DNA from: Escherichia coli
GTDB lineage: Bacteria > Pseudomonadota > Gammaproteobacteria > Enterobacterales > Enterobacteriaceae
Assembly: GCF_050920415.1 (NCBI RefSeq)
Contig: NZ_CP169309.1
Reading direction: 5' to 3' (one strand)
DNA: 64,000 nucleotides
Shown here piece by piece: positions 15,150 to 41,838 of this stretch. The first letter of the stretch is position 1. Every line of letters starts with the position of its first letter. The position numbers and the translations under genes were made by a program. A model generated the notes under the pieces. That model had not been told where the DNA came from and made no database searches. It saw only the letters and a list, made by a program, of their open reading frames with translations.

Positions 15150-15160
15150 TATAATATAGC
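15150..15160. repeat. Left copy of the 11-bp direct repeat tataatatagc (putative attL core)
   Basis: Exact 11-bp match to 47440..47450; host-like sequence to the left, AT-rich foreign sequence to the right. Confidence 0.6.
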
Positions 15161-15409
15161 TTTGGACCCCAATAAAAACCAAATGAAAACAATTAATTAT
15201 GAAAGAAATATCATTGTAATGTCGCAAGAATGTCGCAGAATTTTGAATTTTACATCAAACAGAAATCTTACATAAGTCGTCGAAAAGGAAAACTACCAAT
15301 ATCTTTTCGGTGTTTCCTTTCCCCAAATGGAATTTTTCCTGTTATGCTAATATTCGTTTTAAGGTGTTGATAACTAACATTACACAAAGCAATTAGAACG
15401 GATACTAAC

Positions 15410-16984
15410 ATGGCTAAAAACGCAAAAAACGAGAAACCAAAAAAGTTAGCTTATAGAATAAAAAGTATTAATATTGAAAAATTAAAAGGTATAAATAACT
15501 GCCCTATTTCCTTCCCAGCAGACAGGTCTGTAACTGCTATAATGGGAATTAATGGTTCAGGTAAATCAACAATATTGCACGCTCTATCATGTGTTTTCAA
15601 ACCCAAAGAAAAATCATCCCAAGAAAATAATAGATTTTCTGACTTCTTTACCCCTCACAATGAAAATAACTGGCAAGATAGTAAATTCTCAGTAAAATTT
15701 CGAGCGGGAGAGATAAAAAACAATGGTAATAAAGTCTTTTTTGAAGAAATAGATAATGAAGAAAAGAAAGATATTGTTTATGGCAAGGATAAAAGGTGGA
15801 AACCAGTTTACGCAAGAAGACTTGAAAGAGAATCTATATATATAGGATTACAAAATCTTGCAACGTTAGCTGACAATACAGGAGCATCAAGATACTCAGA
15901 ATATGAAAGAGTAGATATTTATGATAAAGATATAAAGAATCAAATGATATTAGCTCTGAATAAAATCTTAGATGCAGATTACAACGATTTGTTTGAATGC
16001 CGCACCATTAAGGGAAACAAAAAATTCATAGGCATGGTTAAAAACGGCATTGAGTATACAGAACATACTATGGGTGCTGGAGAAAAGAGAGTCTTTGAGA
16101 TAGTTAAAAATGTTTATAATGGAAAGTTAATGCCCAATGGTTTTCTAATCATTGATGAAATAGATGTTTTGCTACATGAAAGAGCTTTTCATGAATTAAT
16201 TAATTTTCTTATCGAAGAAAGCAAGTCTATGTGTTTTGAGGTTGTTTTCACAACACATAGAGAATCCATAATAAAGTTTAAAAATCAAATCAATATAGTA
16301 AGTATATGGAACATAGGGAATGGAATAGAGGCTTATCCCGGCGTTTCTGCGGATGCTCTTCGACAGATATCCAATGTAGAACCTGATATGGTCAATGTGT
16401 TTGTAGAAGACAACTTAGCAAAAACAGCACTAAATATTTTAGTTGAAAGTGAAGGTATGAATGAACAAGTTGATATCTCGCTTTTTGGTTCGGCTGAGAA
16501 TTCAGCTGTAATTTTGTCAGGACTTAAATTAACTGGCAAACGAATTGATACAAGCCTGGCAATTTTAGACGGTGATTACTATATTACCCTCCCTGAAAAG
16601 ACCAAAATGGTTGATAGAGTGTTATCTGGAACAGATAAAAAAGTAGAAAAAAAAGAAGTCTTATCAAGAATATTCCAATTCAATTTAGATGTGACTGACG
16701 TCAAAGGCTCTCCAGAAAAAAACCATCGTGATTGGTTTGAATCTATAGACGAAAACAATATTTCGGAAAATGATAAGACAATGTTTCTTAACCTGAAAAA
16801 ACATTCTACAAGTATTGGTGCTTTAACTGATTATCATGAATATTATCCAGAGTTAGCTCGAAGGTCAAAATTAGATAATATTGAGTACAAAGTTTTGAAT
16901 TATATTAGTAAGTATAGTAATAAATGGGATTTTTACATAAATGATATTAGAAATGAAATAAAAAAAGCAATTGCAGCGATCTAA
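15410..16984 (+). CDS. ABC-type (AAA_21/AAA_15-like) ATPase fused to a C-terminal Toprim/DUF4435-like domain; OLD-family or fused-PARIS-like candidate defence protein
   Basis: Walker A GINGSGKST, signature-like GAGEKR, Walker B LIIDEIDVLLHE, H-loop TTH; C-terminal half has VFVEDN and ILDGDY resembling Toprim E and DxD; about 30 percent GC; own terminator. Confidence 0.6.
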   Translation: MAKNAKNEKPKKLAYRIKSINIEKLKGINNCPISFPADRSVTAIMGINGSGKSTILHALSCVFKPKEKSSQENNRFSDFFTPHNENNWQDSKFSVKFRAGEIKNNGNKVFFEEIDNEEKKDIVYGKDKRWKPVYARRLERESIYIGLQNLATLADNTGASRYSEYERVDIYDKDIKNQMILALNKILDADYNDLFECRTIKGNKKFIGMVKNGIEYTEHTMGAGEKRVFEIVKNVYNGKLMPNGFLIIDEIDVLLHERAFHELINFLIEESKSMCFEVVFTTHRESIIKFKNQINIVSIWNIGNGIEAYPGVSADALRQISNVEPDMVNVFVEDNLAKTALNILVESEGMNEQVDISLFGSAENSAVILSGLKLTGKRIDTSLAILDGDYYITLPEKTKMVDRVLSGTDKKVEKKEVLSRIFQFNLDVTDVKGSPEKNHRDWFESIDENNISENDKTMFLNLKKHSTSIGALTDYHEYYPELARRSKLDNIEYKVLNYISKYSNKWDFYINDIRNEIKKAIAAI

Positions 16985-16991
16985 ACCTCAT

Positions 16992-17020
16992 AAAAGGCGT
17001 AATTTATACGCCTTTTTTTA
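16992..17020. terminator. Rho-independent terminator after the ATPase gene
   Basis: aaaggcgta...tacgccttt stem followed by a run of T. Confidence 0.75.
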
Positions 17021-17181
17021 AGGTTTAAATTATAGTTGCTAATTTCTACTCTTTGTTCCCTCTGTTCGTGCACGTTTCAGGTAGTAAGCTCTCCATCGAA
17101 CCATAGAGATTGAACGCTTTGATTTTTTTTTACATACTGTCTGAAGCTCATTTACTAAGTATTGATAGTCAGGATGACAAC

Positions 17182-17808
17182 ATGACCTCCTACGATGAAC
17201 TTAAAGAATGCATCCGCCTTGAAGTCATTGGCCATGACAAATCCTTTTCATGGCGTAAAGCGTTACTTCGTACCCGACGCAACCAGAAGAAGCACTTCCT
17301 GTTCTGGTGGCGTATCGCTTCATGGCTCTATGGCCAGAATAGTAAGTTCAAAAAGCGCATTGCCCGCAGAATTGAAAACCGCCTCAAGTACCTGCATAGC
17401 GTTGATATTTCGCTGTCATGCAAAATCGGCAAGGGTTTAAACATTGCTCATCTGAACGGTATTGTCATTACTGACAATTGCGTGATTGGTGATTTCGCCG
17501 ACCTGAAGCAAGGCATCACCATAGGGTTACGCACCGACAGTGCCGACGCGATGATAGTCATTGGTGATCATGTTGATATTGGCTGTAATTCGTCCATTCT
17601 GGGCGGCAAGGTTACGATCGGAAACAATGTCACCATTGGGGCGCATTCACTGGTACTTCAGAACATCCCCAGCGACACCGTTTATAAAAACAAGATCACG
17701 CCGGTGTATACATCCAAACTACCGCAGCAGGAATATCAGGAAAATCGGCCTTTTGTCACTGGCAAGGCGATAAAAGAAGCGTCCCGTTCCGCAGAAGCGG
17801 TGCTGTAA
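17182..17808 (+). CDS. Hexapeptide-repeat (left-handed beta-helix) acetyltransferase, serine/sugar O-acetyltransferase-like
   Basis: Tandem hexapeptide repeats (GIVITDNCVIGD, VIGDHVDIGCNSSILGGKVTIGNNVTIGAHSLV); start chosen at ATG 17182 with AGGA RBS, alternative start at 17110; AT-rich. Confidence 0.65.
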   Translation: MTSYDELKECIRLEVIGHDKSFSWRKALLRTRRNQKKHFLFWWRIASWLYGQNSKFKKRIARRIENRLKYLHSVDISLSCKIGKGLNIAHLNGIVITDNCVIGDFADLKQGITIGLRTDSADAMIVIGDHVDIGCNSSILGGKVTIGNNVTIGAHSLVLQNIPSDTVYKNKITPVYTSKLPQQEYQENRPFVTGKAIKEASRSAEAVL

Positions 17809-18186
17809 TTTCGCTGAACAAATTTCAGTTATGAAGATTGCATAAATTTACGTGCAGCCCGCGCCAGCTCTTACAAGCGGGCTAATCTCTATAATGTCTG
17901 GCTTATCTCCCAACGATCCACGAACACCGCCTAAAATATAATTTTCCCTTTATTATCTGTGCGTTATGATTTTACACCGATCCTTAACAGATCCTCTTTA
18001 CTGAAAAAAATGAAATTTCTTTCAATCATTTCAGTTCCTGTTCTCCGCAAAGCCGCCAGTAATGGTGCGGTCTGGCGCTCTGGTTTGTAGAAAAATAAAA
18101 CTGAAAAAATTTCCAGATCCAGAAACCGCAGGCGGGTGCGGTGTAGCGCCGTTTTTGTCTGCGAAAGATTTATTTTGTCGGCGCAT

Positions 18187-18230
18187 CGCAGCGCCAGCGC
18201 AGCGCCAGCGCAGCGCCAGCGCAGCGCCAT
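18187..18230. repeat. Four tandem copies of an 11-bp GC-rich unit (cgcagcgccag)
   Basis: Read directly: cgcagcgccag x3 then cgcagcgccat, in a noncoding spacer between the cargo and the last phage gene. Confidence 0.8.
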
Positions 18231-18352
18231 GCGCACGATCTTTTATGTGTGTTGCGTTGGGTTAATTTGTTGCCTGAAGTGCTGAGGGCGCGTTCTGCTG
18301 CGTCTGAGGAAGGGTATGAAAAAGCCCGCATTATGCGGGCGTGTTGTCATGG

Positions 18353-38735: not shown

Positions 38736-40757
38736 CTATAACCACCCCGGCCATAGCTCCTGCAATGGTTCGTTTCGTGTTTCCTTCAACCGCCCATTGC
38801 GGTAAATCAGCGCCCCCTGACCAAATATCAAACCACTACCCCGCAGGAGAATGGCTATTTCTTCATCGGAACCCTCAAAACCCCGACTGCGTAATTCCAG
38901 TTTTAACCGTCTGCGGGTTCCTCCCTCCGTACAGTTATTGACAGAACTCCAAGGGGCGGCGTTGCCGCCAGAAAAACCCGCCTCCGCTGTCGCTTCGGCC
39001 AACTTCGCAACCTTTTGCCACTTAACAAGACGGGTGCAAACTTCTGAATCAGGAACCAAAGGAGAATAAACACCCTGTACGCGCTGCACGTCCTCCGCGT
39101 ATTCGTTGCCCTGTTCCGTAATTTCATAGGCCAGACGAACAACCAGATCACGGCGGGCAACCAGTGCACCGCCCTGCGCCTGGGTATATGCAGCCCAGTC
39201 CCCGACATCAGCAGCGGCCAGAACCGCATCCATTCTGCGATCTGTCAGTACCTGATCCCTCAACCGACGCAGCTCACGCCAGACGGTTACCGGCGCGCCA
39301 CCAATCTGCTGAAACTGGCGAATACGCCAGCGTGAAGCCCACGCGGAAACGGACTTAGCCATATCACGCAGGTTTTCGCCGGTTTCTTCATCCTGTTCAC
39401 CATCCAGCGCAAAACCATCAATATTTTTTGAAATGTATTTCGCGATGTAGCCCGTGGCCGAACCTTTGGCGGGATCGATAGCTTCAACATGAAAACGCGC
39501 CTTCAGCGCCTTTTCAGATTGCAGTTCTTCAGAATCAGTAATTCTGGCGTGATAACAAAGAATATCGCGTACCGTGTCCACGTCCTGCGGACGCATAAAA
39601 AGCAACATATGCCAGTGCGGTGTCCCGTCATGGTGAGGCTCAACAACCCGAAACCCAAAGACATGAATACCCGCACGCGAGATCGCTGCGCGTGCTTTTG
39701 CCCATACGCCACATAAATAGCGCTGAGTATCCTGTGGTGTACTTCCATCCCACTGTGAAACAAAGCCCCCTTTGCTGTGCACCGCATGGAATCGCGATGG
39801 CGCGGTGATGGTGTAAAACTCACCGGCCAGCCCTTCTTCATTGGCCATATCTTCAAATCCTCTCATTCTTACCATTAGTTCACAGCGACGGATCGCCGGA
39901 TTTGCAACGCTGCGGTGCACCATGCTGTCCAGTGCAATGCGCAGCCCTTCATCATTCAGCAGATCAAACTTTTTGAAGAACTCCAGATTCCGCTTTTTCT
40001 GTTCTATCCATTCCTCTAGGGTTTTACGGGATACATAAGCACTGGCCGCTTTTTGTACCTGCCCCACCGCGATGGCCATATGTTCGCGCTGCGTATCACG
40101 CGCACGTTTAAGACGCAGGTACCACCATTCCGGCGCCATCATGCGCAGTATCCCGGATTCCGCCTTACGCGTTTCCAGTTGACCTTCATTGGCCTCATGA
40201 TCAGCCCAGTACGGCGGCTGGTTATTCAACATCAGGCAACACGCACAAAGATGGCGGTATGATTCCAGGGTTCGGCGGTGCAGTTCTCTGGCGTCGTCAG
40301 TGCCGGATTCAAACTGTTCGGTGAAGTCATAAAGTGACTGGGAAATCCAGCCAGATACCTGACCAGCCAGTTTTTTAAGATCAAGACGGTCTAATGACGG
40401 CAAGCGCTCCAGCGACTTACCAAAAGGAAGATCAGCAGCATCAGCGGCCAGAGAGTAACGCGCAGCCACTTTTCGCAGACGAGGCAATACATTCTCGCCA
40501 ATAGTTTTACGCAAGAATGTATTGGCTCGGCGACGCCCGTCACGGCCAGAAAAAAGCTTTTCGTAACGACGGCCAAAATACCCGGCTAACCAGTCGGGTA
40601 TCTCATGAAGGTACTTTGAGCGCCATTCGTAATCCTGCGGGTTAACAGCCCACAGGCGGCGTTCTGTGATAGTCGCGTCTGCCGGTGTGCCTGGTGCGAA
40701 AGTTTCCCGCCTCCAGGCATCAACGGTATAGCATTGTTCATTTATTGCCAGCGTCAT
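38736..40757 (-). CDS. Rolling-circle replication initiator / nickase (P2 gpA-like, HUH endonuclease)
   Basis: 673-aa ORF with HUH motif PHWHMLLF and downstream catalytic tyrosine region (GYIAKYISK). Confidence 0.8.
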   Translation of the reverse strand: MTLAINEQCYTVDAWRRETFAPGTPADATITERRLWAVNPQDYEWRSKYLHEIPDWLAGYFGRRYEKLFSGRDGRRRANTFLRKTIGENVLPRLRKVAARYSLAADAADLPFGKSLERLPSLDRLDLKKLAGQVSGWISQSLYDFTEQFESGTDDARELHRRTLESYRHLCACCLMLNNQPPYWADHEANEGQLETRKAESGILRMMAPEWWYLRLKRARDTQREHMAIAVGQVQKAASAYVSRKTLEEWIEQKKRNLEFFKKFDLLNDEGLRIALDSMVHRSVANPAIRRCELMVRMRGFEDMANEEGLAGEFYTITAPSRFHAVHSKGGFVSQWDGSTPQDTQRYLCGVWAKARAAISRAGIHVFGFRVVEPHHDGTPHWHMLLFMRPQDVDTVRDILCYHARITDSEELQSEKALKARFHVEAIDPAKGSATGYIAKYISKNIDGFALDGEQDEETGENLRDMAKSVSAWASRWRIRQFQQIGGAPVTVWRELRRLRDQVLTDRRMDAVLAAADVGDWAAYTQAQGGALVARRDLVVRLAYEITEQGNEYAEDVQRVQGVYSPLVPDSEVCTRLVKWQKVAKLAEATAEAGFSGGNAAPWSSVNNCTEGGTRRRLKLELRSRGFEGSDEEIAILLRGSGLIFGQGALIYRNGRLKETRNEPLQELWPGWL

Positions 40758-41614
40758 GCGCTGGCCTCAGAAGTCGCCGGTAAAGGCCATTTAAGAATCA
40801 GCTCTGCCGCCGTTTTCGGGCTTGCAGCTGCCGCACCGACACTACGCGGCGCATTAACCTTTACGGCGTCAAACCCTGCATACAGGTAATGCACCATTTC
40901 CAGATCGCTGTTTGACGCGACAACGGGAATCCCACGTTCAGCCAGTCGGCGCAGTTTACGCGCCAGCCGCCCCTGATCCATGTGCGAAAAACCGCGCTCA
41001 TGGTAAGCGGTGAAATTGTCGGCATCAGTCAGATAAGGCGGATCACAGTAAACAACGTCACTCCCGCCCCGAACCAAATCGAGCGTTTCTGAATAGTGGG
41101 CAGTAATGAACGTTGCGCGTTTTGCTTTTTCAGCAAAGGCGCGGATTTCATCAGCGGGGAAATAAGGCTTTTTGTACTTACCGAACGGGACGTTGAACTG
41201 GCCTCGTCGATTGTATCGGCACAGACCATTGAAGCAGTGCCGGTTTAGGTAAAGGAAACGCGCAGCAGCTTCAACGGATTCAGAACCAAAGGATTTACCT
41301 GACTGATTGAAAGCATCACGTACCGCGTAATAGAAAATTGCGCGGCTTTCTTCACCACCTAATGAACCGGCTGTAAACAGGCTCTCCAGTTCATTCAGCA
41401 GCGCATCAGAGTGATACGCCATCGCCTTATAAAGATTAACCAGATCAGGATTCACATCTGCGATCAGATATTCATCATATTCCGTATTCATCATGACGGC
41501 GCAGGAACCTGCGAACGGTTCAACCAGGCGCTTTCCTTCCGGCAAATGGGGACGCAACTGCGGCATAAGGCGGGCTTTGCTGCCCACCCATTTAAGCGGT
41601 GTTTTTATTGCCAT
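40754..41614 (-). CDS. DNA adenine methyltransferase (Dam-like, N6-adenine, DPPY motif)
   Basis: LKWVGSK N-terminal SAM-binding region and DPPY catalytic motif. Confidence 0.85.
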   Translation of the reverse strand: MAIKTPLKWVGSKARLMPQLRPHLPEGKRLVEPFAGSCAVMMNTEYDEYLIADVNPDLVNLYKAMAYHSDALLNELESLFTAGSLGGEESRAIFYYAVRDAFNQSGKSFGSESVEAAARFLYLNRHCFNGLCRYNRRGQFNVPFGKYKKPYFPADEIRAFAEKAKRATFITAHYSETLDLVRGGSDVVYCDPPYLTDADNFTAYHERGFSHMDQGRLARKLRRLAERGIPVVASNSDLEMVHYLYAGFDAVKVNAPRSVGAAAASPKTAAELILKWPLPATSEASA

Positions 41615-41838
41615 GCCGCGCCCCCTTTGCTGCAAATCGCTGCGGCTTCTTCGCGGATTAACTCAACGATTTCCGCTGCGCTTAGACCTTCATTGGCCGC
41701 ATGAGTGGCCAACTTATCCAGACGGGTGGAACACAGATCAGCAGCTGCGGCTTTACCTTCCTGCGTGGCTTTGGTGAGCATGGCCAGCAGGTCAGTGCCT
41801 GATTTTGTTGCGGGTAAATTCTGACGTGTCATGTGCAT
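41605..41838 (-). CDS. Hypothetical phage protein
   Basis: 77-aa ORF coupled to the methylase gene. Confidence 0.4.
   Translation of the reverse strand: MHMTRQNLPATKSGTDLLAMLTKATQEGKAAAADLCSTRLDKLATHAANEGLSAAEIVELIREEAAAICSKGGAAWQ

What the first reader, a model, noticed from the sequence alone, without database searches (positions are those of the whole stretch)
15410..16984. AT-rich cargo gene: ABC-ATPase fused to a Toprim-like domain, a candidate OLD/PARIS-like anti-phage protein
The 524-aa product has a full ABC/SMC-type ATPase motif set (Walker A GINGSGKST, GAGEKR, Walker B LIIDEIDVLLHE, TTH) and a C-terminal region with VFVEDN and ILDGDY, which resemble the Toprim glutamate and DxD of OLD nucleases and of the DUF4435 domain of PARIS AriB. 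The gene is about 30 percent GC against about 52 percent for the host, has its own terminator, and sits at the attL-proximal end of a P2/186-like prophage. P2-like prophage ends are known hotspots for defence cargo. At 524 aa it is shorter than P2 Old (586 aa), so it may be a compact or new variant.
Basis: partly seen in the sequence, partly recalled or inferred. Interest (0 to 1): 0.85.

Follow-up and report, generated by a model that had tools for sequence, protein, structure and literature searches.

The report
HEC-04/IbfA-like ATPase-Toprim prophage defence gene
An AT-rich gene at one end of a P2-family prophage in E. coli encodes a one-protein ATPase-plus-nuclease of a recently described anti-phage family (HEC-04/IbfA), so it is a credible but not new kind of phage-defence gene.

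Summary
Window 15410..16984 (+) is an intact 524-aa ORF with 31.5% GC against about 50-53% around it. All the quoted motifs are present, and a strong terminator hairpin follows the stop codon. The gene lies just inside the left junction of a Peduoviridae (Quadragintavirus, ESSI2_ev015-like) prophage inserted between mntR and mntS.

Neighbouring genes differ between homologous loci, so it is a single-gene system. The slot it occupies is a variable cargo site in related prophages. Only 1 of 5,426 complete E. coli genomes carries the gene.

Verdict: a new, divergent, prophage-borne member of a known family. Trigger and substrate are unknown.

The parts
15150..15160 (.). Left copy of the 11-bp att core TATAATATAGC (right copy at 47440-47450); marks the left prophage junction next to mntR
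   Evidence: Longest exact repeat between the two junctions. E. coli core homology ends at about 15163. The core is conserved in the Enterobacter locus.
15219..15237 (+). Two copies of ATGTCGCA spaced 11 bp apart; a matching pair lies at 47325-47343 at the integrase end. Probable integrase arm-type sites of attP (inference)
   Evidence: Read directly from the sequence; conserved in the AHB29 prophage.
15300..15409 (+). Upstream block that travels with the gene (promoter and 5' leader presumed). Includes the invariant CTGTTATGCTAAT (possible extended -10, TGcTAATAT at 15345-15353) and AAGCAATTAGAAyGGATmCTAAC before the ATG
   Evidence: Conserved between the window, E. coli AHB29 and the Enterobacter homologue locus, while the DNA further upstream diverges. 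No consensus sigma-70 site scored at least 9/12 here, so the promoter is inferred, not shown.
15410..16984 (+). CDS for the 524-aa ABC-ATPase-Toprim protein (HEC-04/IbfA family)
   Evidence: ORF; PADLOC HEC-04 E 3.1e-33; phrog_3940 E 3.6e-47, full length; 488 homologues; AF2 model with mean pLDDT 87.6.
15449..16309 (+). ABC/SMC-type ATPase head (about residues 14-300): Walker A 15545-15571 (K52), signature-like MGAGEKR 16073-16090, Walker B/D-loop 16145-16180 (D249, E250), H-loop 16250-16258 (H283)
   Evidence: Pfam SMC_N 2.1e-14, AAA_15, AAA_23, AAA_21. Foldseek top hits are Rad50, retron PtuA, T. scotoductus OLD and SMC heads. The motif residues are invariant.
16385..16588 (+). Toprim-like core (about residues 326-393): beta-alpha-beta-alpha-beta with VED 16403-16411 (E333) and DGD 16568-16576 (D387, D389), plus invariant G360 and N364
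16589..16981 (+). C-terminal helical domain (residues 394-524) with invariant G407, P435-E436, H476 and W506; role unknown, possibly completing the active site or binding substrate (inference)
16992..17019 (+). Intrinsic terminator: 10-bp stem, 5-nt loop, U run
   Evidence: RNA fold -12 kcal/mol, z -5.35, 0 of 200 shuffles as stable.

Best explanation
The gene encodes a stand-alone anti-phage protein of the HEC-04/IbfA family, a branch of the wider OLD-like ABC-ATPase-Toprim nucleases. It was acquired as an AT-rich moron in the attP-adjacent cargo slot of a Quadragintavirus (P2-family) prophage. The proposed mechanism is as follows. The lysogen expresses the protein from its own promoter. The N-terminal ABC ATPase head binds ATP and holds the protein in an inactive state. 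An infection cue, either a phage protein or an aberrant nucleic-acid structure, changes its nucleotide or oligomer state. That exposes the C-terminal Toprim metal site (E333, D387, D389). The Toprim site then cuts nucleic acid, stopping the infecting phage and probably also arresting the cell (abortive infection), which protects the lysogen population and the prophage. Shown here: the domain architecture, family membership, conservation of the catalytic residues, single-gene organisation and cargo status. Inferred from relatives: anti-phage activity, dependence on ATP binding and the Toprim site, and the abortive outcome. Unknown: the trigger, and whether the substrate is DNA or tRNA.
Confidence: 0.78

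Rival explanations
1. It is an orthologue, or a compact variant, of P2 Old (Class 1 OLD nuclease), acting as P2 Old does.
Against: The PADLOC Old match is a much weaker hit (41 bits against 113 for HEC-04); its best stretch covers residues 15-72, and a second stretch is not located in the output. The family profile against P2 Old aligns only 91 columns of the ATPase C-lobe, probability 89%, with nothing in the Toprim region. The gene is not at the P2 old/tin locus. HEC-04 and phrog_3940 match far better and over the full length.
Confidence: 0.05
2. It is a fused PARIS system (AriA-AriB in one protein) that releases a tRNA-cleaving Toprim when triggered by anti-restriction proteins such as Ocr.
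Against: There is no DUF4435 (PF14491) hit in the query or in 28 relatives. The fused AriAB model does not appear among the best 25 PADLOC matches for this protein, while HEC-04 scores 113 bits. Foldseek gives the PARIS complex only probability 0.18 (rank 25).
Confidence: 0.04
3. It is an orphaned effector of a type I-B retron (Class 3 OLD) that needs a reverse transcriptase and msDNA to be controlled.
For: The PADLOC ATPase-Toprim_I-B model matches almost end to end (residues 19-464 against profile positions 4-424 of 443, E 1.3e-20). Reading 'I-B' as the retron type is my own knowledge of the retron classification and was not checked here.
Against: No reverse transcriptase gene adjoins it. 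mntR is upstream, and an acetyltransferase lies downstream beyond a terminator. Rfam finds no retron RNA in the window. None of the homologue loci inspected has an RT neighbour. The HEC-04 score is higher.
Confidence: 0.03
4. It is not a defence gene. It could be an SMC/RecF-like ATPase-nuclease used by the prophage or host for DNA repair, replication or partition, or a selfish addiction-type module.
For: Pfam sees only SMC_N/AAA-type ATPase domains. NCBI annotation is simply 'AAA family ATPase'. The IbfA authors raise the possibility of host-beneficial roles other than defence.
Against: The gene is dispensable for the phage: it is absent from ESSI2_ev015 and from all 50,697 phage records. It occurs in 1 of 5,426 E. 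coli genomes. It occupies a slot that otherwise holds unrelated accessory genes, such as a PIN-domain protein. Relatives sit among toxin-antitoxin and KAP NTPase genes and on conjugative plasmids. Two relatives have measured anti-phage activity.
Confidence: 0.08

Closest known systems
HEC-04 (Hma-embedded candidate 04; WP_044502283.1 of E. coli MOD1-EC5853; bioRxiv 10.1101/2024.01.29.577857)
   Same: Both are single polypeptides with an ABC ATPase followed by a Toprim domain. They share the motif set (GxNGSGKS, GAGE, DE-x-D/E...LH, TTH, FVED, DGD, PE). HEC-04 is the best PADLOC model for this protein (E 3e-33). The residues mutated in HEC-04 (K62, E319, D375, D377) align with K52, E333, D387 and D389.
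   Different: Identity is only about 25% over 379 columns. This protein is 524 aa against 490 aa, with a longer insert between Walker A and the signature motif. HEC-04 was found embedded in an Hma system on a chromosome, whereas this gene lies in a prophage cargo slot. The PADLOC alignment stops at residue 410, so the helical tail is not covered.
IbfA of IncI1 plasmids R64/pUA1135 (PMC12111858)
   Same: It has the same architecture and a similar length (518 aa). It is 32% identical over 415 residues including the VED and DGD motifs. It hits the HEC-04 model at a similar level. It is a single gene on a mobile element and causes abortive infection.
   Different: IbfA is carried on plasmids next to a ProQ/FinO-family gene rather than on a prophage. 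The two sequences diverge after about residue 426. The protein compared here is an IbfA-type protein from an IncF plasmid, identified as such by its length and ProQ neighbour and not by accession. The phage range of the window protein is unknown.
OLD family nucleases, Classes 1 and 2 (P2 Old; T. scotoductus OLD 6p74; B. pseudomallei OLD 6nk8; GajA)
   Different: There is no sequence-level match through the Toprim region. No GajB-like helicase partner is present. TM-scores to the OLD hits are below 0.5 (0.31-0.47).
Retron type I-B effector (Class 3 OLD ATPase-Toprim)
   Same: It is the second-best PADLOC model, and the match runs nearly full length, including the Toprim region.
   Different: No reverse transcriptase or msr/msd RNA lies nearby.
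PARIS (AriA ABC ATPase + AriB DUF4435 Toprim)
   Different: PARIS normally has two genes. DUF4435 is not detected in this protein, and AriA/AriAB models score far below HEC-04.

Membership tests
HEC-04/IbfA ATPase-Toprim defence proteins | Significant match to the family profile (PADLOC PDLC04149), better than to any other defence family | tested here: met
   E 3.1e-33, 113 bits, residues 9-410 against profile positions 17-394 of 494; best of 72 families. IbfA scores 141.7 bits on the same model.
HEC-04/IbfA ATPase-Toprim defence proteins | N-terminal ABC-type ATPase with an intact Walker A lysine (HEC-04 K62) | tested here: met
   GINGSGKST 46-54. K52 is invariant and aligns with K62. The fold matches Rad50, SMC, PtuA and OLD heads.
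HEC-04/IbfA ATPase-Toprim defence proteins | C-terminal Toprim metal site E...DxD (HEC-04 E319, D375, D377), required for defence | tested here: met
   E333, D387 and D389 are invariant in 91 sequences and align with the HEC-04 residues. The beta-alpha-beta core is modelled at pLDDT above 90.
HEC-04/IbfA ATPase-Toprim defence proteins | Single-gene system with no conserved partner | tested here: met
   Neighbours differ in the E. coli, Enterobacter, Klebsiella and plasmid loci. A terminator follows the gene.
HEC-04/IbfA ATPase-Toprim defence proteins | Reduces phage plating when expressed | not testable with these tools
   Shown only for HEC-04 and IbfA.
OLD family, Class 1 (P2 Old type) | ATPase and Toprim domains in one polypeptide, single gene | tested here: met
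OLD family, Class 1 (P2 Old type) | Sequence homology to Old through the Toprim region (Pfam Toprim_Old, PADLOC Old, alignment to P2 Old) | tested here: not met
   No Toprim family appears in Pfam results. The PADLOC Old match scores only 41 bits, with its best stretch at residues 15-72. hhalign against P2 Old covers only 91 ATPase columns.
OLD family (fold level) | C-terminal domain adopts the OLD-type Toprim plus helical fold | tested here: met
PARIS (AriA/AriB or fused AriAB) | DUF4435 (PF14491) Toprim effector | tested here: not met
Retron type I-B | Adjacent reverse transcriptase and msr/msd RNA | tested here: not met
   The flanking genes are mntR and an acetyltransferase. Rfam finds no retron RNA.
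Gabija (Class 2 OLD) | GajB UvrD-like helicase gene immediately downstream | tested here: not met
   The downstream gene is a 208-aa hexapeptide serine O-acetyltransferase. GajA models match only the N-terminal region.

The most novel reading that the evidence does not exclude
The HEC-04/IbfA-like clade to which this gene belongs numbers about 470 clusters at 50% identity. It has its own Toprim plus helical module (invariant VED, G-x3-N, DGD, TG, PE, H, W) that no Pfam model recognises. This clade may be a mechanistically distinct class of OLD-like effector. One possibility is a tRNA- or RNA-cleaving abortive nuclease, as now reported for P2 Old and AriB, with activation gated by DNA sensing. 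That last idea is suggested by a subclade fused to a catalytically dead C5-cytosine-methyltransferase-like domain. If so, the prophage copy would be a compact and tractable E. coli model for how a one-protein ABC-Toprim sensor couples recognition to cleavage.
Probability: 0.2. Interest if true: 0.55.

Novelty: new member of a known kind. Interest (0 to 1): 0.3.

Why it matters
The result adds a prophage-borne, divergent member (25-32% identity to the two tested proteins) to a defence family whose trigger and substrate are still unknown. It also shows that the family travels as a self-contained module of about 1.7 kb (leader, gene and terminator) into an attP-adjacent cargo slot of Quadragintavirus prophages in both E. 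coli and Enterobacter.

For genome annotation, proteins now labelled 'AAA family ATPase' at this position can be called HEC-04/IbfA-like defence candidates. For phage therapy and typing, such prophage cargo can change the phage sensitivity of rare lineages.

It does not open a new category of system.

Tried and rejected
- **Pfam, whole protein.** Only ATPase families were found.
- **Pfam, C-terminal alignment.** None of the 28 members gave a match, so Pfam cannot settle the Toprim question.
- **C-terminal profile against PDB sequences.** Only chance-level hits, the best being penicillin acylase at E 0.02.
- **NCBIfam.** Only sub-threshold P-loop matches; no named family.
- **Foldseek with the full model.** ATPase heads dominated the hits, so the C-terminal domain was modelled separately.
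- **tblastn against 50,697 phage records.** No full-length homologue. Only ATPase-level hits at 24-26% identity in Streptococcus phages and Citrobacter phiNP.
- **P2 Old orthology.** Rejected.
- **An operon or functional pair with the downstream acetyltransferase.** Rejected. A terminator lies between the two genes, the acetyltransferase occurs without the ATPase gene in ev015 and strain EH09-18-41, and the ATPase gene occurs without it in Enterobacter.
- **A retron context.** Rejected.
- **Consensus promoter scan.** Nothing found upstream of the gene. A conserved TGcTAATAT was seen only by eye and by alignment.

Full report
**Observation.** The ORF is at 15410..16984 on the + strand, starts with ATG and encodes 524 aa. 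The gene has 31.5% GC. The host DNA to its left has 52.8% and the rest of the prophage 50.4%. The other five frames across the gene contain 19-72 stops each, so the open frame is not chance. A search of 5.8 billion proteins returned 488 homologues, many of them full length. The hairpin after the stop codon (16992-17016) folds at -12 kcal/mol with z = -5.35 and is followed by a U run. The simple scanner missed it because A-U pairs extend the stem into the T run.

**Setting.** The genes to the left are E. coli ldtB, ybiR and mntR. Homology to the E. coli core ends at about 15163 in 5,420 of 5,421 matching genomes. An 11-bp core, TATAATATAGC, occurs at 15150 and again at 47440, just before mntS. 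An integrase gene lies at 46312..47352. The segment 18353-40757 is 96% identical to Escherichia phage ESSI2_ev015 (Peduoviridae, genus Quadragintavirus). The element is therefore a P2-family prophage, but it is not P2/186 itself.

In ESSI2_ev015 the integrase is followed by attP and then directly by a serine acetyltransferase gene. In the window, the ATPase gene lies between the att junction and that acetyltransferase. It is thus an extra module next to attP. tblastn finds no full-length homologue in 50,697 phage records. Only one of 5,426 complete E. coli genomes carries the gene: AHB29, at 96% identity and at the same locus.

Fifty E. coli genomes carry the neighbouring baseplate gene. In the loci I opened, the slot between mntR and that gene holds different content:
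- the acetyltransferase alone;
- a 411-aa hypothetical protein;
- six small genes, including one for a DUF6338 protein;
- a 470-aa PIN-domain protein.

In the Enterobacter cloacae complex, an 85%-identical homologue sits in the same place, next to mntR and ahead of phage tail genes, without the acetyltransferase. About 110 bp upstream of the ATG is conserved between the E. coli and Enterobacter loci, while DNA further upstream diverges. The mobile unit is therefore roughly 15300-17020. This is a variable cargo slot, and the gene is a self-contained moron.

**What the protein is: the ATPase half.** Pfam recognises only ATPase families: SMC_N at 2e-14, plus AAA_15, AAA_23, AAA_29 and AAA_21. An AlphaFold model built on 91 sequences has mean pLDDT 87.6. 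Its best Foldseek matches in the PDB are Rad50 heads, retron and Septu PtuA, T. scotoductus OLD and SMC heads. The ATPase is therefore of the ABC/SMC type.

**Family assignment.** Against PADLOC-DB, the best of 72 matching families is HEC-04 (E 3.1e-33, residues 9-410). The next is ATPase-Toprim_I-B (E 1.3e-20, residues 19-464 against profile positions 4-424 of 443). Old, GajA, AriA and PtuA models match only the P-loop region or score far lower. PHROGs places the protein full length in phrog_3940, which has no assigned function (E 3.6e-47).

[quoted passage not shown] It reduces plating of several coliphages. Its K62A and E319A/D375A/D377A mutants lose defence, and its Toprim domain superposes on B. 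pseudomallei OLD. I took the first 399 residues of the tested protein from the paper's Table S2. BLASTP against the window protein gives E 4e-21 and 25% identity. hhalign of the family profile gives 99.9% probability and E 3e-31 over 356 columns. In these alignments, IFVEDEFAK pairs with VFVEDNLAK and IIDGD pairs with ILDGD. K52, E333, D387 and D389 therefore correspond to the residues that were mutated.

IbfA of IncI1 plasmids was reported as a HEC-04 homologue that aborts infection by a P22-like phage (PMC12111858). A 518-aa IbfA-type protein, encoded next to a ProQ/FinO-family gene on an IncF plasmid, is 32% identical to the window protein over 415 residues. It hits the HEC-04 model at 6.5e-42.

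**The C-terminal half.** Pfam finds nothing there in the query or in any of 28 diverse relatives. A profile of residues 296-524 finds no solved structure by sequence. Conservation, however, is striking. In 91 sequences reaching down to 27% identity, these residues are invariant: V332-E333-D334, G360, N364, D387-G388-D389, G407, P435, H476 and W506.

Taken together, the domain is an OLD/DUF4435-type Toprim with a helical extension that is too divergent for Pfam. The same profile run against 1.84 billion representative proteins finds only 471 clusters (323 at E no higher than 1e-10). Most are 450-550 aa, and a second group is about 800-860 aa. This is a compact, distinct clade and does not merge into the large OLD or PARIS families.

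**How it probably works.** Steps shown here:
- the architecture;
- intact ATP-binding and Toprim metal-site residues;
- single-gene organisation;
- cargo status.

Steps inferred from HEC-04 and IbfA:
- anti-phage activity that needs both the Walker A lysine and the E/DxD site;
- toxicity when over-expressed;
- an abortive outcome.

The substrate is open. Class 1 OLD of Vibrio nicks DNA (PMC12392090, title seen). PARIS AriB is reported to cleave tRNA (titles and abstracts), and a July 2026 preprint reports the same for P2 Old (abstract). I therefore commit to an infection-triggered, ATP-gated Toprim nuclease that causes abortive infection. I put DNA against tRNA at roughly even odds.

**Rivals considered.**
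- *P2 Old orthology* fails, because the family profile aligns to P2 Old only over 91 ATPase columns.
- *Fused PARIS* fails on DUF4435 and on model scores.
- *An orphan retron effector* fails for lack of an RT gene or retron RNA.
- *A pair with the acetyltransferase* fails on the terminator and on the independent occurrence of the two genes.
- *A non-defence role* is unlikely given dispensability, rarity, the cargo slot and the tested relatives.

**Novelty and score.** This is a new, divergent, prophage-borne member of a family that is already described and validated. It is not a new kind of system and not a compact P2 Old. A specialist would find it expected: an ATPase-Toprim defence gene in a P2-family prophage cargo slot. 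Its value is as an annotation and as a possible E. coli model for a family whose trigger and substrate are unknown. Interest 0.3.

Noticed in passing
window 44461-46265 (+): A second AT-rich cargo gene (GC 0.30) lies between the prophage repressor (43819..44403) and the integrase (46312..47352). A 497-aa ORF at 44772..46265 matches the PADLOC candidate system PDC-S49 (E 3e-106, profile positions 122-614 of 624) and phrog_4740. The missing N-terminal part, with a KAP-like P-loop (GKWGTGKT), is an 80-aa ORF at 44461..44703 in a different frame, so the gene looks split by a frameshift. In ESSI2_ev015 the repressor is followed directly by the integrase.
   Followed up: partly
window 15164-18352; loci L001, L005, L014-L017: The slot between the left att junction (next to mntR) and the baseplate gene is a variable cargo site in related prophages. 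It holds the acetyltransferase alone, a 411-aa hypothetical protein, six small genes including one for a DUF6338 protein, a 470-aa PIN-domain protein, or the ATPase-Toprim gene with or without the acetyltransferase.
   Followed up: partly
proteins P0080, P0089, P0090, P0097, P0112, P0115 and 12 further proteins of 750-864 aa (locus L013 for P0097): A subclade of homologues carries an N-terminal C5-cytosine DNA-methylase-like domain (PF00145 is recorded on six of them). All 19 proteins of 750 aa or more lack the catalytic PC dipeptide and the ENV motif in their first 330 residues, and all keep VED and DGD. One of the 19 (P0208) instead carries a C-terminal extension, leaving 18 with extra N-terminal sequence. 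This suggests an inactive methyltransferase domain used as a DNA sensor or binder.
   Followed up: partly
window 15219-15237 and 47325-47343: Paired ATGTCGCA/ATGTCGCG repeats spaced 11 bp apart occur near both prophage ends. The right-hand pair lies inside the 3' end of the integrase gene. They are probably integrase arm-type binding sites. The 11-bp att core TATAATATAGC lies in the palindromic AATAGCTATATAATATAGC upstream of mntS, so the prophage separates mntS from part of its upstream regulatory region.
   Followed up: no
window 17182-17808 (+): A hexapeptide-repeat serine O-acetyltransferase-like gene (208 aa from the ATG at 17182; NCBIfam EpsC/CysE-like, below cut-off; phrog_2154) is a conserved accessory gene of this phage group. 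It may be a lysogenic-conversion acetyltransferase. Its GC is 0.48, unlike the ATPase gene.
   Followed up: partly
window 18188-18230: A short tandem repeat (CAGCGCCAG-type unit, about four copies) lies in the non-coding stretch between the acetyltransferase and the baseplate gene. In E. coli AHB29 the repeat is absent from the corresponding stretch, and an extra module of about 430 bp encoding a 110-aa protein lies a little further downstream, just before the baseplate gene.
   Followed up: no
window 40754-41635 (-): The prophage carries a methyltransferase gene (PADLOC orphan/Type II MTase models, E 6.5e-92) next to the replication gene. ESSI2_ev015 has it too, so it is a core phage gene and not linked to the ATPase-Toprim gene.
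   Followed up: no
window 3755-3832 (-): The only Rfam match at gathering threshold in the window is naRNA4 (RF02564, 73.7 bits) in the host region. It is unrelated to the finding.
   Followed up: no
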